Origin: Catajapyx aquilonaris
Lineage: Eukaryota
Reading direction: 5' to 3'
Assembly (NCBI GenBank): GCA_000934665.2
Contig: KZ538196.1
Span: forward strand, 1-64,000
DNA: 64,000 nucleotides
The notes under the pieces were generated by a model that was not told the DNA's origin, did not search any database, and saw only the letters and a list, made by a program, of their open reading frames with translations. The translations under genes were made by a program, and so were the position numbers. The stretch's first letter is position 1. Each line of letters opens with the position of its first letter. Shown in pieces: positions 9,809 through 63,904 of this stretch.

Positions 9809-9880
9809 TTCCCCGGTCCATCCACAAACACACACACACTCACACATTAACAGTCTTTGTCTTGGTTAATTTTTTTTTAC

Positions 9881-10036
9881 CTCCTCGGACTCGGTGATAA
9901 GCCCGAGCTTATCCTCCTTAAGGTTGTCCGAGGCCCTCTTCTCCTCCTCCCCTTCGTCTTTGAAGACCTTGACCTCGTCCGTGCTGCCCAGGTCATCTCC
10001 TCCGCCGCTGCCGCCGCCAGAGTTCACATGCGGCAT
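9881..10036 (-). CDS. pan: TCF/LEF (pangolin) coding exon 1, beta-catenin/Armadillo-binding domain
   Basis: [52 protein letters not shown] is the diagnostic TCF N-terminus. Ends at a GT donor, phase 0. Confidence 0.96.
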
Positions 10037-10650
10037 GCTGGGTACCGCCACCGCCACCACAAAACACCAATAACACTCTCACACTTGTTGTGCACTACTC
10101 ATTGCTACAGCGGCCCCCTCTTCTGTTGTGACTTGGAGGGCAGCAACACCACCACGGACGGCGGCGCTGTTGTTGTTGTATAGAGAGTGCAGCAGCCCCC
10201 AAGCCAAAGCAGGCCCGCTCTGGCTCTCTCTTCGGAGCGAACCGCCTCTTCTCGCCGGGCTCTCTCTCTCTAGCCGCTCTAGCTGCGCTCCTACCAACCG
10301 CCCCAACCGCCCCCCATCGGCTGGCTGGCGCTCCAAAGGCCGACGCCCAATCAGCGCCTGGCTGGGCTTTGATGTCGCTCCCCTCCCTCACTCCCTCACC
10401 CCCCCTCAGAGGAGAGGAAATGGGGTGGCTGGGTGGAAAAGGGAACCCCCCTCCACCAGCCAGCCACTCTTTTTCCAACAACCACCCTCTACTACCCCTA
10501 GCTCTCTTCCATGCCAGGCGAAGTCGCCCACCACCTACGGCTCCCTCTGTACACGACCCATTCCCGCCATTTACTGAGGGAGCCAGGGGGACCAACACTC
10601 TCTTTTTTAGGTGGGTCAAGTGTGCACGTGTGGCAGGTGCGAACACTGTA
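10037..10650 (-). promoter_or_regulatory. TCF 5' UTR / promoter region
   Basis: GC/CpG-rich stretch directly upstream of the ATG with (GA)n tracts, a CCAAT motif at about 10347 and a CTTTGATG TCF-type site at 10367-10374. The TSS cannot be placed. Confidence 0.5.
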
Positions 10651-23230: not shown

Positions 23231-24783
23231 TTTCTGGTACCGTATTTTTTTAGTTTTATGAATATATTTATTAATATATCCTTGTATAACACAAGTAAAC
23301 ATTAGTACAAGTGTCCTATATATAGGACGCGATGTTCGTAGGATTAAACCGAGTTTCACTTTTAAAGTTACACAACCTTTGTGAATACGACCATTTGTGA
23401 CGTCATTTTTAAACGTCGCTGTTTAAATCCAACTCTTTCTGAATCGCACGCGTGCCTTAAAATGGCGATCTTGCTTTACTGCCTTCGCCATTATTTTTTG
23501 GCGAAAAGGAGCTAGCCTACGGTCCCCTCCGAGGGAAAATAAGGAGCCTGGTAATGACTCGTACCCCGCGAGACTCCTGAGGCTATATTAAAAGGGGTAA
23601 TTATCGCCTCTCAGCCGTCTGCAGGCCCCGCAAATGGGCCGCGATAATCACAGTTATTTTCTCCACCCCCTCCTCACACCCTTCCCGAGACCTTTCCACA
23701 CAACTCCTGAGGGATAACAAGGGGGTTGGGGGGGAAGGGAAACAGAGTTGCCCAAGAAAAGGGGACTCATTAATGTCCACTTTTTTTTTATCAACCTTGC
23801 TAAAAATCACTACCGCGGTCAATTTTGCACCTCACATGTTGTTTTTTTTGTGCAAAGATGGCGGCGCCAAATTTTCCCGCCGGCCAATTCGTGCAGAAAT
23901 TTTGGAGTGGCATCGATTTTTGCACACATCAAAGGAAAAAGGTTGAACGCTTCGCTATACAAAGTGCGTCGGTATGATCCAACCCTCACATGAAAAAAAA
24001 AATGAAAAAAAAATGTAGCCTCCCCCCTCCCTCCCCCCAATTAGGATGGCCACCCCCCACCCTAGCCTCCATCGTTGGATCAGAAGGTTATAGGTATTTT
24101 TGCTGTAATTAGCGCACGGAATTTCACTCGTCGGAAATGCAAGTTCCTTCGTTAGAGGCACGGGTATAGTTTGGTATAGGGGGAGGCTGGAAATACAAAA
24201 TATATAGGCCAGGTCAACATCAAAGAGTTTGCAACTGTTGGAGCCAGAATTATATTTTTTTGGAGGGGGAGGGGCAACAAGCATTGAACTTTTTTTTGTA
24301 ATGTGCAAAGCTGATTCGCGACTGACCATTTCTGCGTGCAAAATCAAAAAAAAAAGAAGAGAGGACGATGTACGGAAATTAATAAAAATTAGATGCGATT
24401 TGCTGGAATTGGACTGTTGGATTTTTTTTGCGTCAAATTAGTAGGCGAGATACGCATGCGCGAGCGGACAGTACGCGCATGCGCAGAACGCCTTTTATCT
24501 TTGGAAATTACCTTTTCTTATACGATCGGCGATCGGATGAAATGAGCGCCATATTTGTATTTTTTCTGATCTCATTAAATTTAATTTTAATTTTTAAAGT
24601 AATACCTCCTGCAGTTCTACGCATGCGCATATTTTATCCTCTTTAAAGTATGCGCATGCTCAGAACTCCGCTTCTCTTTGGAAACATGGCCTGTTCTTAT
24701 GATTTGAGGGAAAGAGTGCCATATTTGATGCTCTGATATAATTAAATTTACTTTTTTAATTATTAAATTTTTATAGTTAATAC

Positions 24784-24936
24784 CTCCTGGCCCGAACATG
24801 GCGCCGTAACATGGCACGTTACAATAGGGCTTCCCTTCGTGCTCAGCATGGCTTCCAGGTGTCAAGGTCTTGTTACACTTCTCGCACTTGAGACAGGCCG
24901 CGTGCCAGTCCTTTCCCAGCGAGGTCTTCCTTTCAG
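24784..24936 (-). CDS. CRIP: CRIP exon 2, LIM domain body
   Basis: (A)[50 protein letters not shown]. 153 nt, phase 1->1, with ttttgtAG acceptor and GT donor. Confidence 0.96.
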
Positions 24937-26274
24937 CTACAAAATAAACAAACATAATAAGCTACATACAATCTGGACAATTAAAATGTATTAATTAAAA
25001 TTAAGCCAAAAACACTAGGAAAATATGACATATTAATACAATTTTTTTTCAGTAGAAGTTGATACAACTGCTCATATGCAGTCACTTATCACATTACGTA
25101 ACTGTATCTAACAGGATATATGCGGCGGCGCCTATTTTAAGTGTTAGTCACGTGTAATCATCACAAAAAAACCAACCCTACATCATCTCTTATCACATAT
25201 TACACACTTTACTCTGACAGTTGAAATTTCTCACGCGATCCATTACGTAACCTTCCACTTTCGCCTTAAAAAAATACGAACAAAATTTTTATAACCACTC
25301 CCCCCCCCCCAAAAAAAAATTTCTTATTGTTTCCATCATTTACCCCAAAGGCAACTTCTGGTGTTTATGACGTCCTTTTTTCCCCTAGCTCTTGTTAGAC
25401 TTTTTTTTTTTGGGGGGGGGGGGTCCTAATTATTACCCCCACTCGATCCGGTTGCTAATTAAGTCCCGATGACACAATGCTCTTTTCATCATTCGTTTCG
25501 ACCCAGGACTGTCTTGAATTCGCTCGCAAAAAAAAACGCCTCCGGACAGTAAAAAAGTTGTCCCCCAAACTGTCCCTTCAACAATGCACCATTGTGCAAT
25601 TTTTTTGCACATTTTTTTCGGCAAAAAAACAGGGTATGATATGATGCAGATTATGCAGACAGGTGCAAAGTCCTGATTTTCAAGTGATTGATAGGACGGA
25701 TCAGCATGTAATAGTTGGCCTTATTTCCAACACTTTTTAAAGTCAGATAAAAAAACTTGAGGTGTGATAAAACAGGACCGATTTGGCAACCGAGGATTAG
25801 CACCTAGCGAGGCCACCTGTACAAAAAAAAAGGTTCCTCCGCAGGTGGAATTTCACCTGGGTCCTACCAACCTTTCAAAGTTTACGAGGCCTGTTTGGGT
25901 TGGGCAGCCTGTACTTGGGTTAATGAATTTCCGGCGAAAAACCCCGCACTTATCTGAAGAAAAATAGGAGGCCACCACCCACTTCCGGTTCATCCCAATA
26001 GTACCGCCCACTACAGTACTACTTCCGTAATCCAATAGCTATTTTGAGGAGTAAGCAGTGGGAATCGTATAACCTGCTGTCAATCAACGTCACTTATTCA
26101 TAGTACGGTATAGCACAATATCAGCAATGTACGGCCAAATAGTGTATACAAATTTATTGCGACTTGCTTAGCAATGACGGTTGAACTTACCTCAAACATG
26201 GATACTCACTTCACATGTGAACGACTTGCAATAATGTCATCAAGAACAAGTGACGCGAATAATAAACCAGATTG

Positions 26275-29011: not shown

Positions 29012-29119
29012 ATGGCCAAGATGTTGTGCATATTGTTGCAGAGGAGTCACGACACAATTCCGTGGGGGATCAGGATCACTGGTGGAGTGGACTTCAGGGC
29101 GCCTATCACCATTCAGAAG
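29012..29119 (+). CDS. Zasp/PDLIM-type PDZ protein, first exon A (PDZ N-half)
   Basis: MAKMLCILLQRSHDTIPWGIRITGGVDFRAPITIQK carries the 'PWGfRl.GG.DF..P.ti.k' signature of ALP/Enigma/Zasp PDZ domains. Donor GTCAGT, phase 0. Confidence 0.9.
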
Positions 29120-30545: not shown

Positions 30546-30829
30546 GTGACGCATGGCAGCCTGGCATCTCAACACCTGAGTCCAGGAGATGTGATAGTCA
30601 GCATCCAAGGGCTGGACACTAGTCTTCTATACCACATGGAGGCCAGCGATCTGATCCGGGAAGCGGGGAACTCCCTAGAGCTGACCGTCTGGAAGCGATC
30701 GTCCAATCCGAGCTCAGAGTGTCCGTCATCCAATGGGTCCTGCACGATGAGCCCTGCCATTGGGAAGGACTTCTGGCCTGATCGATTCTGGCCAGCCAAC
30801 TGCACATCGCCGCTTCCGGATTATCATAT
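30546..30829 (+). CDS. PDZ C-half plus Ser/Pro linker
   Basis: VTHGSLASQHLSPGDVIVSIQGLDTSLLYHMEASDLIREAGNSLELTV... Acceptor ctctctcAG, donor GTAAGT, phase 0->2. Confidence 0.9.
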
Positions 30830-33924: not shown

Positions 33925-33953
33925 ATGAGCAACGAAGGAACCGCGCCATGGAG
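33925..33953 (+). CDS. Alternative first coding exon B, MSNEGTAPW(R)
   Basis: ACC-ATG start and strong donor AG|GTGAGT. Phase 2 matches the common exon at 43128; preceded by a GC-rich promoter-like region at about 33500-33900. Confidence 0.7.
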
Positions 33954-39681: not shown

Positions 39682-39854
39682 ATGACTAGTAAGGAGGTGG
39701 ACCCGAATGACCCCCAGGTCAAAAAACTGGTGTACAATATGTACAGAGGCATGCTGGTCAATTACAATGACAGGGCTAATGACATTGTTGCGCAATTGCC
39801 GGCCGGAATGGTCAAAGAGGACCAAGGGATTTACAAGCAGCTGGAGAGCATTGT
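39682..39854 (+). CDS. Alternative first coding exon C, MTSKEVDPNDPQVKKLVYNMYRGMLVNYNDRANDIVAQLPAGMVKEDQGIYKQLESI(V)
   Basis: ACC-ATG start, 57 open codons with helical-looking sequence, donor GTGAGT, phase 2 compatible with 43128. This frame is not listed in the ORF track. Confidence 0.8.
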
Positions 39855-43127: not shown

Positions 43128-43216
43128 ACGCCAAAACAACCAGGTTTCTGGAGGTGGAAGTCCGGCAACACCGCCATCAGCGCCATCGGAGCCGTTTGCG
43201 CCTGCGTCGAGTCCAG
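43128..43216 (+). CDS. PDZ/ZM-like gene, first common exon (RQNNQVSGGGSPATPPSAPSEPFAPASSP)
   Basis: ttcgcAG / GTAAAG; 89 nt, phase 2->1. Confidence 0.85.
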
Positions 43217-43329: not shown

Positions 43330-43424
43330 ATGGAGGTGCAGGATCCCCACCTGCTTGTCCACCACCACCGCCTCCTCCGCCTCCACCACCAGCGAACATG
43401 CCGTCGTTGAGAATCTCATCAGAA
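43330..43424 (+). CDS. Polyproline exon (DGGAGSPPACPPPPPPPPPPANMPSLRISSE)
   Basis: cttacAG / GTGAGT; 95 nt, phase 1->0. Confidence 0.85.
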
Positions 43425-43480: not shown

Positions 43481-44619
43481 ATTAACCAGCCGCGTTTGTC
43501 ACCCGGTATGCCACCGCCGGCCATCCAAAACGCGATGCTGACCAAAGACAAGAAGCCGTTTACGTACACACCAGGCGGAATTGACCTCTCAGAAATTAGG
43601 AGTCCACGTATGCAGAAGCGGATATCACGCAATGCGATGAGTGAAGGAGTCTGCAACGATGTGCGTCCTGCCGCGCCCGCTGCGTCCCAGCCGCTTCCGC
43701 CGCAAGCAATGGCGGCCATGCAGCCTCAGATTGCGGTGCCGGTATTTCCACAGGGTGTGCCAGTACTACCACCACCACCGCCGCCACCACCGCCTGTACA
43801 ACGACCACCGTCACCACCGCCAGCACCCAAGATGACACCGCCGACAATGCCGACATCACCACGTCCGGTGTTACCCACACCAACAATGCCGCCGCCACCA
43901 CGTCCAGTACCGACAACACCGACAACGACAATGCCGCCGCCACCACGTCCGGTACCAACATCACCGACATCACCGACCACGTTCAAGAACGAACCTGGCT
44001 CCATCTACGTGCCTCCAGTCGTCGGTACGCGTCCGGAAAGCCACGCTGTTGGTGCCATCTTCATCCCGCTGATACCAGAGGACCAACAGCAGCCGACAAC
44101 ACCGCAGTCGCCGTACCCGAACCTGAACAAGACGCCGATGCCCTGGATGAACTCCCAGCAGCGGAAGGTCACTCCTCCTGCTCAGCCTCAACAGGCGCCA
44201 CCGTGGGTGCACCAGCAGCAGGACAGTCCTCCGTGGTCAGGGCAGCAGCAGCAGCAGCCTCCGTGGGTGGGCAACCAGAGGGCACCGGCACAGCAGCAGC
44301 AGGCCAGGGTCATACCGGTACAGAGAGAGGAGAAAGGACAGCAGGGCTCAGGGTCGCAGCAGGGCAGGATCATACCCATACAGGTGGAAGGCCGCAGTCC
44401 GCCAGTGACCACCGGCAGGCCTGGAGGTCAGCAGCAACAGCAGCAGAGACCTGCTGGAAAAGACATGCCGTCCTCAGGTGGAGAGAGGATCATACCCATC
44501 CAGGTCGAAGGTCAGGACAGTCCAAAGACGCCGCAATGGCAGCAACAGCAGCAACAAAGATGGCCTCAGCAACAGGGGTCAAACTCGCCTGGAGCTGACG
44601 TCGCCACTGGAATGAACAA
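43481..44619 (+). CDS. Large Pro/Gln-rich exon with KKPFTYTPGGIDLSEIRSPRMQKRI motif and IPIQVE repeats
   Basis: tttcAG / GTGAGT; 1139 nt, phase 0->2; lies inside ORF 43355-44623. Confidence 0.92.
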
Positions 44620-44956: not shown

Positions 44957-45057
44957 CCTCAACATGCGGGACAACAATGGTGGTCCAAAGAGAGGGCCTG
45001 TGGACCCGATCCAGTCACGATCCTTCCGGATTCTCCAGCAGTTTACAGATGCAGATG
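44957..45057 (+). CDS. Exon with IQSRSFRILQ motif
   Basis: ctgcAG / GTAAGA; 101 nt, phase 2->1; LNMRDNNGGPKRGPVDPIQSRSFRILQQFTDAD. Confidence 0.88.
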
Positions 45058-45116: not shown

Positions 45117-45236
45117 AACCTGCGGGTGCAAGGACTGCCGGAAACAACTCGGTTCCATCCAGGCCTTACCACACCTTACCAAAGATGCCAATGACCGAAG
45201 ATGACCGCAAACTAATGAACATGTTCAGAGCTCAAG
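45117..45236 (+). CDS. Symmetric exon (EPAGARTAGNNSVPSRPYHTLPKMPMTEDDRKLMNMFRAQ)
   Basis: gctcAG / GTAAAT; 120 nt, phase 1->1. Confidence 0.85.
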
Positions 45237-45993: not shown

Positions 45994-46080
45994 AGGACTT
46001 GTCCAATCAGGGCGAAGAAAACCTGCTGTACAGAGGAGGTCACATCCCATCCAAAGTCTTTCGGATACTCGACGAAAGCG
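45994..46080 (+). CDS. Symmetric exon with YRGGHIPSKVFRIL motif
   Basis: tttcAG / GTATAA (weak donor); 87 nt, phase 1->1. Confidence 0.75.
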
Positions 46081-46688: not shown

Positions 46689-46808
46689 TTGATGAAGGTT
46701 CCTACCTGCATTCTGAAGTGGACCCCCGCTATCGAGGTCCCAACATCCCCTCTCGAGCCTTTCGCGTACTACAAACCATGACCGATACTGCTGGCAATGA
46801 CCTAGATG
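46689..46808 (+). CDS. Symmetric exon with DPRYRGPNIPSRAFRVLQ motif
   Basis: ttgttAG / GTATTA; 120 nt, phase 1->1. Confidence 0.88.
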
Positions 46809-47399: not shown

Positions 47400-47459
47400 T
47401 ACCTAGAGGCGCAGCGATGCAGCAGTCTACACAACGAAGCGCGGCGGGCAACCAGCGAG
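47400..47459 (+). CDS. Symmetric linker exon (VPRGAAMQQSTQRSAAGNQR)
   Basis: cttacAG / GTGAGT; 60 nt, phase 1->1; a GC-rich island in an AT-rich intron. Confidence 0.8.
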
Positions 47460-47904: not shown

Positions 47905-48036
47905 AGAGCCAGCAGCAGATGTACGTTCACCCGTCTCAGCAACAGCAGATGCCTGAACCGAAGAAGTACACGGGAAGCAGCATTCCCTCTCGCTCCTTCA
48001 GGATGCTGCAAGCCATGACCCCTCAAGAAGACTGTG
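47905..48036 (+). CDS. Symmetric exon with EPKKYTGSSIPSRSFRMLQAMT motif
   Basis: tttgcAG / GTAGGT; 132 nt, phase 1->1. Confidence 0.9.
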
Positions 48037-49345
48037 GTAGGTTGACTCTCTCAAGCGAGACAAACTTGTAGTGGTCAAACCCACTTTTTTAAATAGTGAC
48101 TTAATGATATTTCCAAGCCTGCAATAATTGAATCAGGAGAGTCATACTTTTTTTGATTTACACAAGATGGTGCACTTTTAAGTTGAGGTGGAAAGATTGT
48201 CAAGGTTTGTTCATTCCAGCAACCAGCTTTGAAGTGAAGCAACAGCCATGGCAATAATATTAGTGATGGCATCTGATTTTTGCTTTTTAAAAATAATTAG
48301 TGATTGAGCTGGGTTAAACAATCTGTCAATTTGTTCACCACTTTTCAACTGTGCACCACCAGTGTACACTAAAAATTTAGTGAATTTCATATAGGCCAAA
48401 TTAAGGCAAAATCTCAGATTAAGTGTGTTTACATTACACAAAATCTGAGATTTAAACTTGAGCTGATGTAACCAGGCCTAAAGGGTTTTGCTGTGGAAAA
48501 AAATGAACCTGCATATTGCAAGTTATGACTCATTAATGTGCGGTTAGCATAATTTTAATATTTTAGCTGCACAGAAATTCAATTTTTCCACCGCAACCTT
48601 CTGTTAAATATGAATCGGTAACTAACATATTGTGCATCGGAGGTAAGGTTATATTTTGCAAAAGTTTGTTTAAAAAAAATTGTTTATCATGCCTTTTATT
48701 ATTTTTTTTAATGTTAATTTTTTTTTCACCTCATTCTGACAATAATGTGTGCTGTGCTCAGATGCCATTATTCTTCTTAGCTGTTGACCCAAATTAACCA
48801 GTTTCACGATTGGTTCCCGCCCCCCCGCAACCTACAAGTTTTTTTTTTTTTTCAAAAGAAATTTTTCAAAAAAAAATTAAATAATTATTGAAAAGCGATT
48901 GGACAGCTTTGGAGATATTATTATAATTATTATAACTCCGGGTAGACTGTGTTCCAGTTATTGAGGTGTCCGTTTCAGTTATCAAAATTTTTCACACCGA
49001 CATACTGTAAAAATAAGCAGCTACTTTTAACAGTTATTTTCAGTGGATATAAGCTATCAGCTTTGACTATGAAGTTTAGTAAATTATTTTATTGAGGTTG
49101 TCAATTTCTGTCGAGGTTTTGCAAACTAATAGTCAATATCTGAAGATTAATTTCTCAGAATTTTTTCCTAATATTAGCCGCTAATATTTTTTTGCAATCA
49201 TCTGATCAAAAGTAACTGCTTAATAACAAGCAGCTTAATTGCGAAAAAAATCGCTAACTGAAACAAGACTTCAATTGGGAGCAAATGGGATAATTAAGAC
49301 TGTCGTCATGATTTGCCAGGGCCATTTGCACTGCACTCCTGGAAG

Positions 49346-50011
49346 CGAACCCGGACCGGAACCGGTTCACTATTTCGAAAAATGCAGTGTTTGCCAGATT
49401 GTTGGTCATCTGATAAAAACAAAAGAGTTTGTTGGCACCAATTGGTGTCGACAGAATTTTTGTTAATTTTTTTTATGAGCGCAACCGAGTGCGCAACACA
49501 GTTCGCGCAAATTGTTACTTGAGGTGGTAATAATATGGCCGACTTTTGCGACGTTGCCAAGGCTTTGGAAGGAACGAACGGGTGAATGTATTTGGCATCT
49601 GGGGAGTAACTGTGGCAACGTTGTTGTCAGAACAATGGAGCTGCGCGAGTGTGGGTACGCACTCGGTTGCGCTCGTAAAAAAAATTCATATATCGCAAAA
49701 GTCGCGGGGGCGAATATGCCGGGGGCTAAAAGTCCGGGGGCGAAACGGCGGGGGCTAAAAGTCCGAGACCCCAAAAGTCGGCCATATTGTTACCCCCTCA
49801 AGAGTAGCGTTGGAAACAAGTGCACCGCTTATTTACCAGCGTACCCACATTGCCAGATATCATTGATAATTCCAACCACGAAAGTTGCGCGAACTGTGTT
49901 GCGCACTTGGTTGCACTGTTTTTTTTTTTTTAATCATCTATTGGTTGTCAACAATTTTTGATTGGCAACATCCTGCTTGGCAAATAGTGAACCGGTTCCG
50001 GTCCGGGTTCG
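49346..50011. mobile_element. ~670-bp foldback/composite DNA element
   Basis: Perfect 30-bp inverted ends CGAACCCGGACCGGAACCGGTTCACTATTT. Inner inverted repeats at about 49479 and 49885-49915; an inner segment is homologous to about 45480-45600. Confidence 0.8.
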
Positions 50012-50144
50012 GTTTTCATCTGGTGCCGTGTGAATGACCCTGCTGAAGTGTGTGTAGAGAGGAAAATATTATTATCTTAGGCTGTAAGAAGTGACCGACC
50101 GACCAACTTGTCCATATCTTTGCCCGGTCTCTTGTCTCTTGTAG

Positions 50145-52492
50145 AAACGATGCGTTCAGAAACGCTGGACAAGGGCAAAGACACACAGCAAACAGAGAAC
50201 GCGCACGAGCAGTTTGAGTCCATACCGGTACCGGTATCCCATTTGCGGGGCCAATGTGACAGTCTCCCCTCCACCTACGGACCACCATCCCATCAGACCC
50301 TGGGTTACGACGATTTCGTATGGGACCCGTACCTGTACTACCCTTATTTCGACTACTGGTACCCTCCTCCTTCCCATGCCCAGCAGCCGCAGGTACAGCA
50401 GGTACCGAACCGGCAGCAGCAGCAGCGACGCTCGTTCATTCCTTCCAAATCCTTCCGCTACCTGCAAATGATGTACGACAATTTCCACGACTACTGTGAT
50501 TTTTTCCCGGACGAATCCGGCGGGTGGTACGGCGATTGGTATGGGTACGACGGAAACGGAGGGTACGACGAAGACTGGGGGGTGTCGGTCGAGGTGGCCG
50601 ACGTACCCAAGGATTACAGGCCGGATGTGCCACCGGAAGAGTTCAGGGCTGATAGTCGACAGGAGGTCAGCGACGTACCACCGTCTGAACCACCGAGTGT
50701 ACCGGCAACCGAGTCCAGTGAGGTGAGTGAGTCGGAGCAGGACTGTAGTGTGCTGGAGACGTCCGACGAGGGACACAGCTGCGTCGAAGGTGTCGTTGAA
50801 GAACCGTCGTCGATCAGCGACGATGCGACCATACGGGCTGTGAAATCCGTGCACGATCTGCGAAACGACGAGTTGACGATCCGTACTGACGACTCATCGT
50901 CGACATCAGGATCAGACGGAGAGGATGATGACGAAGGGGACGAATCGGATAGTACCGAGAGCAACAACGACGATGCGGACGATCAGAAGAAGTACGCTGT
51001 TGACGAACCGCGCGACGATGCTGAGAGTGTCGAATGCGGCGACGAATGGCAGTTTGTCCGTTCCCAATGTTGTAGGCACCGTGGGGCCGTACCACGACAG
51101 CTCAGCGTCATCTACGAAGAGTCAGAGCACTCAGCCGTCAGCGACACTGACAGCGGACGTGCCAAGAAGCCGTCTCTTCGTCAGCCGAGCCGTCCAGTCA
51201 GCGCCGCAATCGACGAGTGCGACGAAGACGAAGCAAGGACCGAACACGATTCGGACACCACTGTCGAAAACCACTCGACAATGGAAAGCGACAGTTCGGC
51301 CACACTAGCCAGCGGAAACAGAGAGAGCGACGATGACGGCAGCGATGTCGACGAGGACTCGACCGTCACTGTCCGACTCCCGTTGCGACTACAGTTCAGC
51401 AAATCCGCTGACGAATCCGACGTCGCCACTTTAATAGTCGGAAACAGCAAGATCGAAGTGGACAAGTCGGACAAAGGGTCGGACTCGGAGACCAAGACAT
51501 TCCAAGTGGAGGCATCGTCGGTGACGTCGGCTCTTGAAGCTGCAGTGTCCCTAGCGACGAAGCACCAGGATGAGATGACCGCCGACGAATCGTCAGTGAA
51601 CAACGACGAAGAATCCGATGATGATGACAGCAGCTCGGACGAAACTGATAGTGAGAACAAAGAACCGATTGCCAACCAGGGTGCGTCAGGCAAGATCGAC
51701 AACGTCATGAACGACCTGAGTGTCGAAGCTGCCAAAAAGGATGAGAAAAAGCCAAAGTTTCATGACCTAGCTTTAGAGGCACTTTTGTGGCACTTCAAAC
51801 GGTACTTACAGGAGAATTTAGGTAGCGAGGATGACTCTGGTGTGGCGGATATGAGTCGACAGTTGTCTGACGTTGAAACTGAGGACACAGAGGCTGATAA
51901 GCGGAAATGTCAACGAGCTAAGACGCACTCTAGATTGTTTGAACTTCTACAGGAAGAGTGTAAGCAACCGGAAGAATTAGTGCAGGTCATACAGGAGGTC
52001 ATTGATGAACCGAAACCAGATGACCGAATTGAGGACCTGAGACGTCGTAGGACATTGCTGAATCTACCAGTTGGTCCGGCTGCTGAAACGCCCGGATCAA
52101 GCGGGATTGTCACACCGTCGTTGGCGTCCCCGACGTCTCCAACAACCCGTGAGAAACTGATAGCCGAACTGATACAAGAACTACAACGACGCACATGCAC
52201 CAAATCGGCTCCTCCACTGCGAGACGTCTTCCAGTGGATGCAAGACGAGTTGGCTCAGGGAGACACCACTGCCAATAACAACAATACATACGAGTACGAC
52301 ACATACTACCAACCAGACACGTACCAGCGTGTCAGGTGTCCAAAATGGGTCGCAAGATGCCCACGCACAACCACTGCCAAATGTACAAATAACGAAACGA
52401 AGGTAGCACCAACTGACCCATCCCAATCAACCCAACAACCTAACAATAAACCCGAGGACTCCAACACCAACAACAATACCTCATCTTCTTGA
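50145..52492 (+). CDS. Alternative terminal exon L: ~780-aa acidic, Ser/Asp/Glu-rich, probably disordered tail
   Basis: cttgtAG acceptor in phase 1, in frame with ORF 50108-52492. Contains a further IPSKSFRYLQ motif, which ties it to the upstream gene. Confidence 0.88.
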
Positions 52493-53852
52493 TGGAGGGG
52501 AGCACGATACCCCCCTCAAAAAAAAACAACACTTGATTGGCCAGTTTTCAAGTCGAGAGATCCTCTGCTGGGTCTTCTTTTCCTCGGAAGGTACAGAGAT
52601 TAGGCATTTACCCTCCCCCCCCAAAAAAGTGGTCTTTTTAATTAATTATTTTTTTTGGTTGTTTAATTAGTGTGGAGTGCTATTTTGACTATAATCGAAC
52701 GATACCCTTCTCCAACTTTTTTGGTTAGATTTATTTTTTTTAAAGTAAGAAAAAAAAAATTAGGCGCAATCTCTCTGGAGTAAACTCCACCTTTTCCCAC
52801 ACGACACCGGTCAAATGCTGTGTGTTTTTTATTTATTTTATTTAATACAGTATAATAATTAATAAATGAAAAAAAGTGACAGCTACCACACACGTGATGG
52901 TAACACACATTCCACACGTTTCAAATTTACGCACATAAGGGCCTACATAGCTGTCCAATGCGAAAGGGCCATCAAACGCAAAATAAATAAATAATAATAA
53001 TTGTTGATTTTGATTCCGCAACATTAATTAACCGAACTATATGTAGATTGCAGTTGGAATGAACAAACTCATATTTTGTGTATTACAATGGGGTGCAGTT
53101 TGCTTCAAAGAGATTTTCTAGCAGTTTACCTCTCTTTTTTGGTTTTTTTTGTTCATTTTTTTTGGACTAGCCTGTGTGCTATGGCGTGTGCCTCACCTTT
53201 TTTTTTGACAGTTGGGGATATCAAAGTGCAAATTTTCGCCCAAAAATTTTTGTGTTGTCGCGAACCTCCGTGTACGAGGACGACTTCTTTGCAAAATAAA
53301 TAAATAAACACATTCCACACTATACACTATGCAGTAGTTTAGAGCACTCACAGGCCCGTTCACCTTTGATGTCCTCAAACTTTCTGCAAACTTTTGGCTT
53401 TACTGCTCGCACCTTTGTTTTATATTGGCAAAGGTATTGGCCCCAAAAAATGGCAACCATTTTGGTTCCAATACCAGGCATGATACTTTGCTCATTTTTT
53501 GGCTAGTTAGCGACAAGTGGTCGGCTTTTTTTCACGTATATAGACACACCGAAGCACGTCACACTAAGTAGATAGAGATACGTAACACTAACGGCATGCA
53601 AAGCGTATTTATTATTATATGAAGGTATATTATGCAAATTTTTATTAGCAAATGCCAATTCATTCCTCAAATTATGTGGTGTCCTACATTTTTATATGTT
53701 GTGCTGTCCTGCAGGGTTATGTAATTTTGGACCAAAGTCACCCTAATTCACCTAACGTAACCCTGTACCGACCGTGTGACATGACCTGGGAAGGTCAAGG
53801 CAGGTCATGTGCAGCGCAAAATGCAAATTCAGGAACCAATTTTGAACGGCCC

Positions 53853-54310
53853 TGCAAAGTTGCGAGGGGCGTGGCCTAATGTTGCAAGCAGCTTGTCCTA
53901 CAAATTGCCGGAGGCGTGGCTTAATAGCAAGTTGCGGGAGGCGCGGCCTAAAGTTGCAAGGGGTGTTGCCTGAAAGTTGCAGGAGGCGTGGCTTGATAGT
54001 CAAGTTGCGACAGGCGTGTCTTAAAAGTTGCAAGGGGTGTTTCATGCAAGTTGTAGGAGGCGTGATCTGCAAGTTGCGGAAGGCGTGGCCTAAAATTGCA
54101 AGGGGTGTTGCCTGAAAGTTGCAGGAGGCATGGTCTACTGGCAAGTTGCAAGTGACGTGTCCTACAAATTGCAGGAGGCGTGGCTTGATAGTCAAGTTGC
54201 GAGAGGCGTGGCCTAAAGTTGCAAGGAGTGTTTCCTGCAAGTTGTAGGAGGCGTGATCTGCAAGTTGCGGAAGGCGTGGCCTGCAAGTTGCGAGAGACCT
54301 GTTAGCAAGT
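53853..54310. repeat. Degenerate minisatellite (about 22-23 bp, AAGTTGC..GAGGCGTGGC)
   Basis: About 20 reiterated aagttgc/aaattgc units with a higher-order duplication. Confidence 0.9.
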
Positions 54311-54806
54311 TTGCTAGAGTCGTTCAAAATTGGTATGAATTTTTGCATTGCGCTGCATGTGATGTTGAGAAGTCTTTTCTTATGGTTTTGTCACATGGAA
54401 AGCAAGGGAAAAAACATAAATCATAACTTACCTCTTGTTGGTCTCGCCCCCACCTATGGTTCGTGGGATGTGATACTTTGCAGGTGGACTTCGCTGGGGC
54501 AACTTCGGTAGTCCCAAGTTACACAATCCTGCAAGACAAGCCAGAATTGCAGGGATGTGAATTTGGGATAGGCAGCTACACTTGTTACAGTGAGCTTATG
54601 CATGACAACTTTATCAAACAAAAATTTATAATGTACTTTACAATATAATCTAGAAAGGACACATGGCAGGGCTTATGTTGCGACGTCACAAGGCCCAGCT
54701 TTATTTTCCAGTCAATTAAAAATTTGTCAGCAAAAATTGCATGATTTTAATGCACAATGTTCTATCAGGGTTGACACTAATTTTTGTTCTTTTGCTATTT
54801 TTGCAG

Positions 54807-54829
54807 GACCCGGCGAATCGGATATGTGA
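54807..54829 (+). CDS. Alternative terminal exon S: (G)PGESDM* followed by a ~0.8-kb 3' UTR
   Basis: Long polypyrimidine tract plus ttgcAG, phase 1. TGA at 54827-54829, then a T-rich UTR with AATAAA at 55651. Confidence 0.8.
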
Positions 54830-56470
54830 AATACCAAACTTTGTAGCTCTGAAGGAAGGAGCGGGGAAGTTTTTACTTTTGGTTTAATTTTCGTAGAGGA
54901 GTTGTACGGATTTCAAATTTTTATTTTCGCGATACACAAGGAAGCAAAAAAATTTTTTGGATGGTATTTCCTTCCCTCGAGTTGTCTGGCGTTTTTCTTT
55001 GAACGCTTTTCCTTCAACTATTGCCAACATTAGCAATAGTAGTTGGTTTAGTTTTGGCTTCGATGTTGCAAGAGCATTTGGCGAATTCTTTTGTTATTTC
55101 TCTTTCTATTTGTTACCGCAGAGTGCTATGTAGAGTTTTTTGCACTAGTTTTTATTGGGTAAAATTGTACTTTTGCTATTATTTATACGTTTGTTATAAT
55201 TTAATAAGAAATATCAGTATGTTTGTTACATTTGTTTGTAAGGACAAAGTTTTGACGAATTTTTATTGGCACCGCGACGATTTTTTAACGAAATGAATTT
55301 ATCGGACGGAAGTGATATGGAGCAGATATTTCTTGTTGGCAACATTTTTTTTGACTTAGTGTTGTACTGAGATTTTTTAAAAAATAAGCAAACTAACCAA
55401 TCTTTAAAAAAAAATCATAATTTATAACACAGTCCCGTTTTGTATAGTACTCAAACATTTTAACTCTAGTTACTTTGTTGCTTGAAGGATAGACCTCTCT
55501 CCAGATGAATTAAAAGCCTCTCTATAATGTATTAATTACTTTGATTACATTGATACAAATGTGCTGAATGCTAAGAAGCAACAGAAACACATTTTGTGAG
55601 TAATTACAGCACATTTTTTTTGTACTTGTTCACTGTGATTGTGACAACGTAATAAACATCAGAGAGTGAAACGGTGCTTTTCATTCACATTGTTTGCTCC
55701 CACTGTACCTTACTCATCGTACCATCAATCACGGAATAAAAATATGAAAAAAGTAATTAATTCCAGTTAATTCCGGATAAGTTGGGTCCAACGTAATTTT
55801 CAGTGTTACAGACCCAAGAGGAAAAACCCAAGGTGAGACATTTACATATTTTCCGGACCATACCTATAATACTGGGCATCACCGCGAGGACCGAGGTCAA
55901 CAAGAGGATACGTCAGCGAACTAATGACGTCAATTCGCGAGGAGGGGGGGGGGGGGGAANATAATCTCGCCACATTTGTATGATAAGATTCTGATCCCAA
56001 ACGAGCAATGAGATTTCCTTGCTATTTCCTGCACAATAATTACGTATTACAGGTTGTGCAGTACTACAAGATAGTCAACCTTGACATTACAGGAATATGC
56101 AGCAAAAACTGGTTTCTTGCTAAGTGACCCTGAAATAATGGCACTTATGCTGACAATTGACGAATTATGATGTGCATCAACCTGTAGTACAAACACCAAA
56201 AGAGATGCCGTATTGTCCGTCCCCAATTTATCACTGTCAAACTGTAGATCAGCAATGAATGTTGCAATATATTGCTCATGAAGAAATGCATTGCGTCCCC
56301 TCTTTTTCCTGGAAGAGATGGAGATTAGCCAGTATCCATTTATTCCTGGCCTTCACGTATCGGATCAGCAAGAAAAGCAAACACTGAGTATCAACTGGTG
56401 TGTTTTCCGAGCTATATCATGTTTAAACGGTAGCAGGAAAGAGGAAACAAAATGCCCCTCGATTGAGAAT

Positions 56471-62160: not shown

Positions 62161-62257
62161 TCCGGAAGTAAACCTGTTTGTTAGTCATTGGATTTTCTGG
62201 TTGATCATACCTTTTGTTTGTGGTGGGTCGTTAGTAATTTATTAATTGTAATTGCAG

Positions 62258-62412
62258 GCTCGCCCATAGACCCAACCAGACCTTACCTGGAGATGCTGGA
62301 TGAGCCGCAAGAGAAGTTTAGGTTCAGGTACAGGTCTGAAATGACCGGTACTCATGGCTGCCTCTTAGCGGACGGATCGGAGAAGGACAGGAAAAAATAC
62401 CCGACTGTTCGA
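62258..62412 (+). CDS. Rel: Relish RHD exon (PYLEMLDEPQEKFRFRYRSEMTGTHGCL...YPTVR)
   Basis: RFRYxSEM.GTHG is the Relish-type recognition loop (Ser where Dorsal/Rel have Cys). ttgcAG/GTAAGT; 155 nt, phase 1->0. Confidence 0.95.
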
Positions 62413-62569
62413 GTAAGTAGAGTTGACTTCTATAAATTTTATGACTGTTTCATGAACATGCGAAGTCATTTTCACGTAATTTTGATGATCAGTTAACATG
62501 GGATGCCGTACCATCTAATTATCCGGCCTTGTTCTGAGGTTCGTTAACACAATGTTATGATTTTTGCAG

Positions 62570-63029
62570 CTGAACAACTACAGAGGGAACGCTTGCGTCC
62601 GTGTCACCCTCTGCACTGCTGAGGGCCACCTTCATCCGCATCAACTGGAGCAGAAACCGGTCACCGACAAGGATGGAAACCCTGTCGATTGCCCCATAGA
62701 AATGGTGGTTAATGAGTCTAACGACTATACTGCCATCTTCCAAGGCATGTGCGTGATACATACGCCTCGTAAAAGACAGATGAAGGACGAGTTCGAAGCC
62801 AAGTTGAGGCAGTATCGGCTAGAGAGGAAGCAGTGGAATGCACCGGGATCTCCACAAGCAAAGCTGACCCTTCAAGAGACGGATGAAGTTCACCAGGACG
62901 CAGACAAAATCATAAAAGAGGCTGATGTAAACAACAGGGTCCACCTAATGTTTGAAGCCTTTTCAGACGAGAGTGGCAGCCGTGTTTCGCTGTGCAAGCC
63001 ACTCTTTTCTAGAGCTGTATTCAACCTGA
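62570..63029 (+). CDS. Rel: Relish RHD exon
   Basis: LNNYRGNACVRVTL...HPHQL...FQGMCVIHT...VHLMFEAF...PLFSRAVFNL; 460 nt, phase 0->1. Confidence 0.95.
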
Positions 63030-63331
63030 GTACGTATTTTTTGGAGGTCACGGATAATTAAAATCGTGGTTATTAGGCCATTCTCACAGATTGATAAATT
63101 GCTGTTGCTGGCATTACATGGCTATTTGTTGCCTGTCACTTCACTTGTAACGAAATGTATGTTGTAAAAGTATTGAGGTCACTTTTTTCTCTCTTCGCAT
63201 ATGAAGGAAAGACGCACTTGGATGCATACTTATGCAACGGTTTTCCCCGATTTTTATTAGGAAAGAGTCGATACTCTGATTCACCTGCTGTAGCTTCCAC
63301 AGCTTGTGACTAATTTACGCTTATTTTTCAG

Positions 63332-63436
63332 AGAGCGTGCAGACTTCCGAGCTCAAGATTGTCTACCTGAGTAGAACAACCGGGAAATGTACTGGAGACG
63401 ATGAGATTTGCATACTGGTAGAAAAAGTTAACAAAA
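63332..63436 (+). CDS. Rel: Relish IPT exon (KSVQTSELKIVYLSRTTGKCTGDDEICILVEKVNK)
   Basis: ttttcAG/GTAAGT; 105 nt, phase 1->1. Confidence 0.93.
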
Positions 63437-63524
63437 GTAAGTTGAATTTTGAGCGTCTCCAGCAGTACCAGTTCACTTCATGTTGCCGTTGTTTGACGTG
63501 TCTCTTTGCTTTTTTTTTTTGTAG

Positions 63525-63633
63525 AAGACATAAAGGTGAGATTCTTCGAGGAAGAGAACGGAGAGGAAGTCTGGCAGGCGGAAGGGAATTTCACGCAGTT
63601 GGGCGTACACCACCAGTACGCCATAGTCTTCAG
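63525..63633 (+). CDS. Rel: Relish IPT exon (KDIKVRFFEE...VHHQYAIVFR)
   Basis: ttgtAG/GTATGC; 109 nt, phase 1->2. Confidence 0.93.
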
Positions 63634-63785
63634 GTATGCACTTTTAAGTTTACAACCACAGATAATTCGCTGCAAAACCTTTTGTAAATTAACTTTTGGT
63701 GTTTGGCATTTTTACGAGGTTGTAACAATAGTTCAAAACTTGTTGTTTGCGGATGCAAAAGTTGAACAAGCTTTTGGTTTTGTAG

Positions 63786-63904
63786 GACACCGCCATACCA
63801 TGACAGAAATCTGACGGTGGAAAAGGCCGTGTTGATGCAGTTGTATCGGCCGAGTGACAAGGCTACCAGTGAAGGGAAGGAGTTTAGGTACCTGCCTGGA
63901 GACC
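63786..63904 (+). CDS. Rel: Relish IPT exon (TPPYHDRNL...LYRPSD...EFRYLP); gene continues beyond the window
   Basis: ttgtAG/GTAAGT; 119 nt, phase 2->1. Confidence 0.93.

What the first reader, a model, noticed from the sequence alone, without database searches (positions are those of the whole stretch)
54807..54829. Terminal micro-exon ends in GESDM*, an alpha-actinin-like PDZ ligand, in a gene that encodes a Zasp-type PDZ
Seen: the short last exon adds only GPGESDM-stop. Known: vertebrate alpha-actinins end in GESDL, a class-I motif (x-S/T-x-hydrophobic) bound by ALP/Enigma/ZASP PDZ domains. Inference: the locus can encode both the reader (PDZ, via promoter A) and a mimic ligand (via last exon S). 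This would allow head-to-tail autoinhibition, self-polymerisation, or PDZ-less decoy isoforms that compete with alpha-actinin for Zasp proteins. The long tail removes the ligand. With the promoter and cassette choices, this would be a combinatorial Z-disc switch; it is the best candidate here for an undescribed system.
Basis: partly seen in the sequence, partly recalled or inferred. Interest (0 to 1): 0.75.

Follow-up and report, generated by a model that had tools for sequence, protein, structure and literature searches.

The report
Conserved actinin-like tail, splice-switchable
An unstudied arthropod gene that looks like a muscle scaffold ends in a short, conserved docking tail resembling that of alpha-actinin, which a large optional exon removes; the tail most likely docks onto the Zasp muscle proteins rather than onto the gene's own optional docking domain, but binding has not been measured.

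Summary
Intron-skipping contigs of one run join 48036 to 54807, giving GPGESDM-stop. Two corrections: the exon is about 860 nt (23 coding), and it is the shared last exon; the long exon (50145-52590) is a stop-containing cassette spliced onto it. The tail is conserved: 61 of 66 relatives with a short tail end in [ST][DE][LMFY], and this genome's own alpha-actinin ends GESDL. The PDZ is Zasp52-like, shares an intron position with this genome's Zasp52-like gene and keeps the key binding residues. But self-binding is unlikely to be what conserves the tail: only 14 of 319 relatives carry the PDZ, and hemipteran copies lack the key Arg (17 of 17) and mostly the His (17 of 18) while keeping the tail. 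Best reading: a switchable ligand for Zasp52-type PDZs in trans, working like FATZ/myotilin tails. Binding, muscle localisation and the PDZ-to-core splice in this species are inferred, not shown; a structure prediction gave only weak support (0.37, best control 0.01). Look-ups found no earlier scan note on this gene.

The parts
54807..54829 (+). Coding part of the shared last exon: (G)PGESDM-stop, class I PDZ-binding-type tail
54830..55666 (+). 3' UTR of the last exon; AATAAA at 55651, contig ends at 55666
50145..52590 (+). Long cassette exon L: 782 acidic residues, stop at 52490-52492, donor at 52590 spliced to 54807; removes the tail; has blocks conserved in termite and mayfly proteins
47905..48036 (+). 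Exon E11, last IPSRSFRMLQ repeat; donor chooses between L and the last exon
47400..47459 (+). Exon E10 (60 nt)
46689..46808 (+). Exon E9, IPSRAFRVLQ repeat
45994..46080 (+). Candidate cassette exon E8 (87 nt, frame-neutral, IPSKVFRIL repeat); skipped in the X1 contig, inclusion not seen
45117..45236 (+). Exon E7
44957..45057 (+). Exon E6, QSRSFRILQ repeat; weak match to DUF4749 positions 65-85, below cut-off
43481..44619 (+). Exon E5: conserved KDKKPFTYTPGG core, Pro/Gln-rich region with IPV/IPI motifs
43330..43424 (+). Exon E4
43128..43216 (+). Exon E3, common entry exon for the three 5' ends (phase 2)
39682..39854 (+). Predicted 5' end C (coding part), like N-termini of named relatives P0232 and P0121; predicted, splice not seen
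33925..33953 (+). Predicted 5' end B (coding part, PDZ-less), like the N-terminus of P0001; outside the stretch on which reads were laid
30546..30829 (+). PDZ exon A2 (second part of the PDZ, with the helix-B histidine)
29012..29119 (+). PDZ exon A1 (coding part; PWGIRITGG binding loop)

Best explanation
The last exon supplies a free C-terminal class I PDZ-binding motif (S/T-D-hydrophobic) to the short forms of an uncharacterised, mostly disordered arthropod scaffold. Shown: the splice, the frame, the conservation, and that including exon L replaces the tail by a 782-residue acidic region. Inferred: the tail docks in trans into the groove of a Zasp52-type (possibly also Zasp66-type) PDZ, the last residue in the PWGF loop, Ser(-2) against the helix-B His and the acidic residues near the strand-B Arg, and so recruits the scaffold to Z-discs or muscle attachments in the way FATZ and myotilin tails bind Enigma-family PDZs; including L switches this docking off. 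The gene's own PDZ came from a Zasp52-like gene, is optional, and is decayed or missing in most lineages, so it is not what keeps the tail conserved.
For: Splice joints. 61 of 66 short-tail proteins end in the motif, 17 distinct 7-residue tails, named records from Hemiptera, Hymenoptera and Diptera; position -2 is always S/T and -1 always D/E; two lepidopteran relatives that lack the last repeat still end FTDL. Own alpha-actinin ends GESDL. The genome has a Zasp52-like gene with PWGFRL and the helix-B His. PDZ in only 14 of 319 core-containing proteins, all named ones hemipteran; Arg22 absent in 17 of 17 and His absent in 17 of 18 relatives' PDZs, and R22T abolishes actinin binding in Zasp52 (PMC5081203). 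Precedent: FATZ binds Enigma PDZs by its C-terminal motif (PMC8163081); fly Z-disc protein CG1674 also ends S-D-F as read from a published primer. Prediction with a beetle Zasp PDZ and a relative's 30-residue tail: weak support, 0.37 against best control 0.01; mark reached by 51 of 78 solved and 2 of 108 mismatched pairs, but at 0.60 or under by only 5 of 78 solved and all 4 mismatches that passed; run agreement at least 40%, partner pLDDT at least 41; peptides are untested and like complexes are solved, so it may be from memory.
Against: No binding, localisation or tissue data. Position 0 is Y in 21 and F in 10 of the 61 tails, which is not the usual L/V/I of class I ligands (own knowledge). 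5 of 66 short tails lack the motif. Zasp52-actinin binding is called non-canonical and needs an extension, so likeness to GESDL need not mean the same site. The counts include isoforms and close kin and are not independent; absence of a PDZ in records is partly a matter of annotation, and one search scored only 8000 candidates. In this species the own PDZ keeps P18, W19, R22, G25, G26 and the His, so it may well bind.
Confidence: 0.6

Rival explanations
1. One reading: the tail binds the gene's own PDZ, closing PDZ-bearing short forms head to tail or chaining them, with promoter and exon L choice as switches. It could hold in this lineage in addition to trans binding.
For: The window's PDZ keeps all five residues tested as needed in Zasp52 and the helix-B His. 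The A1+A2+core+last-exon frame is open, 756 residues. PDZ and tail stand in one predicted chain in P0205, P0235 and P0138.
Against: Tail kept where no PDZ is recorded (305 of 319 core-containing proteins lack it, many of them fragments) and where Arg22 and the His are lost. [quoted passage not shown] The A2>E3 splice was not observed in this species.
Confidence: 0.13
2. The tail is a real C-terminal ligand, but for another reader: a non-Zasp PDZ protein, or a non-PDZ domain that binds acidic C-termini.
For: Conservation shows selection on the free end, not the partner. Position 0 tolerates L, M, F, Y and differs by order. G-P at -6/-5 is as conserved as the last three residues, which actinin (LYGESDL) does not share.
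Against: Four of the last five residues equal those of the species' own actinin; the gene carries a Zasp-derived PDZ and DUF4749-like repeats, which point to the Zasp setting.
Confidence: 0.2
3. The seven residues are only a by-product of a shared 3' UTR exon; exon L is the regulated part and the tail has no binding role.
For: The exon is mainly UTR and is shared by both forms; 5 of 66 short tails differ.
Against: Constraint at -2, -1 and 0 across named orders, substitutions staying within S/T, D/E and hydrophobic classes, with a variable position at -7; chance 0.4%.
Confidence: 0.07

Closest known systems
FATZ/myozenin/calsarcin and myotilin C-terminal motifs that bind Enigma-family PDZs (von Nandelstadh 2009, seen only as cited in PMC8163081)
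   Same: Disordered scaffold with a short acidic, hydrophobic-ended tail; proposed same reader family.
   Different: Their motif is class III (acidic at -2; consensus recalled); this one has S/T at -2. No calsarcin match in 21 family members. Here a cassette exon removes the tail.
Alpha-actinin C-terminus (GESDL) and the ZASP/Zasp52 PDZ (PDB 1rgw; PMC5081203)
   Same: GESD identical at -4 to -1 in this genome and in human ACTN1/2; PDZ profile hits ZASP/Cypher best, E 1.7e-15.
   Different: The tail sits on a disordered chain, not EF-hands; last residue M/L/F/Y; Zasp52-actinin binding needs an extended PDZ.
Drosophila Zasp52, Zasp66, Zasp67 (Alp/Enigma family)
   Same: Zasp-type N-terminal PDZ with the same intron position (QK|V, phase 0) as this genome's Zasp52-like gene; weak DUF4749 matches in 10 of 21 members; LIM-less like Zasp66/67.
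   Different: No ZM core motif and no LIM; PDZ optional and absent from most records; own conserved core and long acidic cassette.
Drosophila CG1674 (synaptopodin-2-like Z-disc protein; PMC11753949)
   Same: Its cloned reading frame ends S-D-F (primer read), the same motif class.
   Different: Not this gene: different C-terminus from the Drosophila relatives (GPGQSDL) and a calsarcin domain that this family did not match.
Uncharacterised orthologue records: D. simulans XP_039154329.1, D. willistoni GK14832, Anopheles gambiae AGAP008812, Cinara cedri VVC36787.1
   Same: Same core, repeats, short and long tails.
   Different: Only automatic names; the D. melanogaster gene name was not established (CG44085 is a recalled, unverified candidate).

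Membership tests
Class I PDZ ligands | C-terminal S/T-X-hydrophobic (definition in PMC9751615) | tested here: met
   S-D-M at the end of the spliced short form; 61 of 66 relatives
Class I PDZ ligands | Measured binding that needs the free C-terminus | not testable with these tools
   Only a weak structure prediction with relatives' sequences
Zasp PDZ domain proteins (Katzemich 2013; Liao 2016) | N-terminal PDZ with PWGFRLxGG motif; P18, W19, R22, G25, G26 needed for actinin binding | tested here: met
   Window reads PWGIRITGG: the five tested residues are kept, F and L are I; Pfam PDZ over cut-off. Not met in relatives: Arg22 absent in 17 of 17
Zasp PDZ domain proteins | PDZ exons are part of this gene's transcript | tested here: inconclusive
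   Frame open and phase fits; joined in predicted hemipteran proteins; no read evidence here, 303 nt 5' of E3 in the X1 contig lie outside the laid stretch
Alp/Enigma (PDLIM) family | Zasp-like (ZM) motif | tested here: not met
   ZM core pattern absent from window 28001-56000 and from 318 of 319 family proteins; genome search with PF15936 rang at 4 other places, not here; only weak matches to its C-terminal part
Alp/Enigma (PDLIM) family | LIM domain(s) (absent in Zasp66/67) | tested here: not met
   0 of 319 by pattern; none by Pfam in 21 members
FATZ/myotilin class III motif | Acidic residue at position -2 (class III definition in PMC9751615; the five-residue consensus is recalled) | tested here: not met
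   -2 is S or T in all 61 motif-bearing tails
FATZ / synaptopodin / CG1674 | Calsarcin domain | tested here: not met
   No PF05556 match in 21 members or in the window exons scanned
Z-disc proteins | Localisation at the Z-disc in muscle | not testable with these tools
   No tissue or imaging data; inferred from the PDZ type and tail

The most novel reading that the evidence does not exclude
An undescribed fourth Zasp-derived gene of arthropods that carries both a Zasp-type PDZ and an actinin-mimic ligand: promoter choice and one stop-bearing cassette set whether a molecule is reader, ligand, both or neither; ligand-only forms compete with alpha-actinin for Zasp PDZs to tune Z-disc assembly, and in lineages with an intact PDZ the protein can also close on itself or chain, while its IPV/IPI motifs bring small heat-shock proteins.
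Probability: 0.15. Interest if true: 0.75.

Novelty: new variant of a known kind. Interest (0 to 1): 0.45.

Why it matters
Insect Z-disc work centres on Zasp52/66/67 and alpha-actinin, and the papers read here name no insect tail ligand of Zasp PDZs. A conserved, uncharacterised gene with an actinin-like tail that a conserved cassette exon switches off gives a direct test in Drosophila (delete one codon, force or block the cassette) of whether Zasp PDZs use the canonical groove for partners other than actinin. It also shows a PDZ that was duplicated from a Zasp52-like gene and then decayed or vanished while the ligand stayed. The principle (Z-disc scaffold tails that bind Enigma PDZs; splicing that removes a PDZ ligand) is known, which limits the surprise.

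Tried and rejected
Run search: no RNA holder listed; one run of unrecorded kind. Parts without cover in X1 (exons C1, E8, the E11>L joint not listed among joints) are not used as evidence. Identification as CG1674: rejected. CG43897 (Z-disc per PMC12898291 passages) and CG44085 (one passing mention) were recalled candidates for the fly name; neither was verified. In the complex prediction, the control that kept only the leafhopper copy of the gene's own PDZ with the tail scored 0.00; this is no support, not evidence against binding, and it is not the window's PDZ, which lies in two exons and was not modelled. Calsarcin search of the own genome rang nowhere, controls included, so it says nothing. 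ESM Atlas gave only unnamed arthropod clusters. The E6 repeat matched no PDB chain and a repeat profile of 200 sequences did not match the beetle Zasp protein. Paper searches for AGAP008812, DUF4749 (7 listed, none on this gene by title or abstract start), Zasp terms and six motif or accession terms (0 papers) found no description of the gene; subscription papers are missing from the library, von Nandelstadh 2009 is not held, and supplements (for example the Zasp52 interactor table of 10.1101/2022.10.11.511783) were not seen. Earlier scan notes: none near, none by sequence, seven unrelated by words.

Full report
Observation. The 23 bases at 54807-54829 follow a clean acceptor and, entered in phase 1 from the donor at 48036, read GPGESDM-stop. 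One public run, X1, of unrecorded kind, has contigs that skip GT..AG introns along the gene. A second joint, 52590>54807 (depth 14.7, 31 letters), shows that the long exon splices onto the same exon. So the exon is the shared last exon, about 860 nt to a poly(A) signal at 55651 and a contig end at 55666, and the long exon L is a cassette with its own stop 98 nt before its donor. Of 16 candidate acceptors in 48037-56000 and 143 on the + strand of the window, only this one gives the motif in phase 1.

Gene. Three predicted 5' ends (A with a PDZ in two exons, B and C without) all end in phase 2 and fit E3; all 12 combinations with E8 and L are open, 635 to 1560 residues. B and C resemble N-termini of relatives. 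None of the three 5' splices was seen in reads: A and B lay outside the laid stretch, and 303 nt at the contig's 5' end are unplaced. The core (KDKKPFTYTPGG) finds a family of uncharacterised insect proteins and an Artemia protein. Repeats of the type SRSFRMLQ match DUF4749 weakly, in 10 of 21 members at E up to 0.1. Exon L has conserved blocks (E 3e-17 to a termite and 1e-19 to a mayfly protein, pairwise), so the long form is a protein form, not noise.

Conservation of the tail. Of 343 proteins fetched lack the last repeat (mostly fragments) and were set aside, 97 have a long tail and 66 a short one. 61 of 66 end in [ST][DE][LMFYIV], against 2 of 97 long and 3 of 180 others; composition predicts 0.4%. 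The five exceptions are three tails of one mosquito-like kind (one named Anopheles) and two like the named Orussus record. The set holds isoforms and close kin; there are 17 distinct 7-residue tails. Named records: Hemiptera ESEY, ESEF, ESDF; Hymenoptera TDY; Diptera QSDL, ETDF, VSDL; two moth proteins end FTDL after a different last repeat. The genome's own alpha-actinin ends LYGESDL, as do human ACTN1 and ACTN2 chains in the PDB.

The PDZ. Exon A2 passes the Pfam PDZ cut-off; a profile of the family's PDZ hits ZASP/Cypher best. The intron falls at QK|V, phase 0, as in this genome's Zasp52-like gene on contig C678, which suggests duplication from it (inference). The window's copy keeps P18, W19, R22, G25, G26, each needed for actinin binding in Zasp52 (PMC5081203, passages and section 14), and the helix-B His that reads S/T at -2 (role from own knowledge). 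Relatives differ: 14 of 319 core-containing proteins have the PDZ, all named ones hemipteran; a PDZ-profile search among longer proteins returned no named holometabolan member of this family, though only 8000 candidates were scored; Arg22 is absent in 17 of 17 and the His in 17 of 18 scored copies, one more not being matched by my pattern, aphids being over-represented and several fragments assigned by PDZ likeness alone. The tail is kept in these same lineages. This decoupling is the main argument against self-binding as the conserved function.

Mechanism. Best reading (0.6): the tail binds Zasp52-type PDZs in trans and exon L switches it off. A three-chain prediction (beetle Zasp PDZ, leafhopper family PDZ, 30-residue tail of relative P0018) gave weak support: 0.37, best of three controls 0.01; the mark was reached by 51 of 78 solved and 2 of 108 mismatched pairs, but at 0.60 or under by only 5 of 78 solved and all 4 mismatches that passed; agreement at least 40%, partner pLDDT at least 41; peptides are outside the calibration and like complexes are solved. 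It barely moves the odds. Rivals: another reader (0.2), self-binding (0.13), no function (0.07). Against my reading: no binding or tissue data, Y or F at position 0 in 31 of 61 tails, and the non-canonical nature of Zasp52-actinin binding.

Comparison. It would work like FATZ and myotilin tails, which bind Enigma PDZs (PMC8163081, passages), but it is not class III and has no calsarcin match. It is a Zasp-PDZ protein by motif in this species, but not an Alp/Enigma member: no ZM core, no LIM. It is not CG1674, whose frame ends NLPYSDF by the primer in PMC11753949 (passages). Papers seen: PMC3591300 (passages, section 10), PMC9751615, PMC6910826, PMC12898291, PMC11911433, PMC10262806, 10.1101/2022.10.11.511783 (passages only); no supplements. 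Ten searches found no description of this gene or tail; the library lacks most subscription papers and the fly gene name is not established, so this is weak evidence of novelty.

Verdict. Real, spliced, conserved and switchable; probably a new variant of a known kind of Z-disc docking tail. Interest 0.45; the bolder reader-plus-mimic switch has about 0.15 probability and would merit 0.75.

Noticed in passing
window 43481-44619 (E5): Five IPV/IPI-type motifs (e.g. RIIPIQVE twice); 147 of 163 family proteins have two or more before the last repeat. BAG3 binds HSPB8 by IPV motifs (PMC10262806), so small heat-shock protein binding is a candidate; no chance control was run.
   Followed up: partly
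window 54354, 54599, 54738: Three TGCATG (Rbfox-type, label recalled) sites within 453 nt before the last-exon acceptor; 16 on the + strand in 64 kb, post hoc Poisson p about 2e-4. Possible control of the L/last-exon choice.
   Followed up: partly
window 52492-52590: The stop of exon L lies 98 nt before the last exon junction, a layout that could invite nonsense-mediated decay; the joint is nevertheless present in X1 contigs.
   Followed up: no
window 45994-46080: Frame-neutral candidate cassette with an extra, diverged IPSKVFRIL repeat, skipped in X1: repeat number may be tuned by splicing.
   Followed up: partly
G000:C678:24577-28928 (L006, L007, L012): Zasp52-like gene of the same genome, with PWGFRL, helix-B His and a DUF4749/ZM exon; three further DUF4749 matches on C15428, C2044, C3759.
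   Followed up: partly
window 9869-10078 (-), 24770-24940 (-), 62188-63811 (+): Neighbours: TCF/pangolin-like first exon (CTNNB1-binding), a LIM exon of a CRIP-like gene head to head with the PDZ 5' end, and a Rel-family gene.
   Followed up: partly
window 53851-54291: Tandem repeat (period 23/72) in the intron between exon L and the last exon.
   Followed up: no
proteins P0217, P0223: Diverged relatives (one named from a moth) that end directly after a QSRSFKYLQWITGTED repeat with no PDZ-type tail; possibly a paralogue.
   Followed up: no
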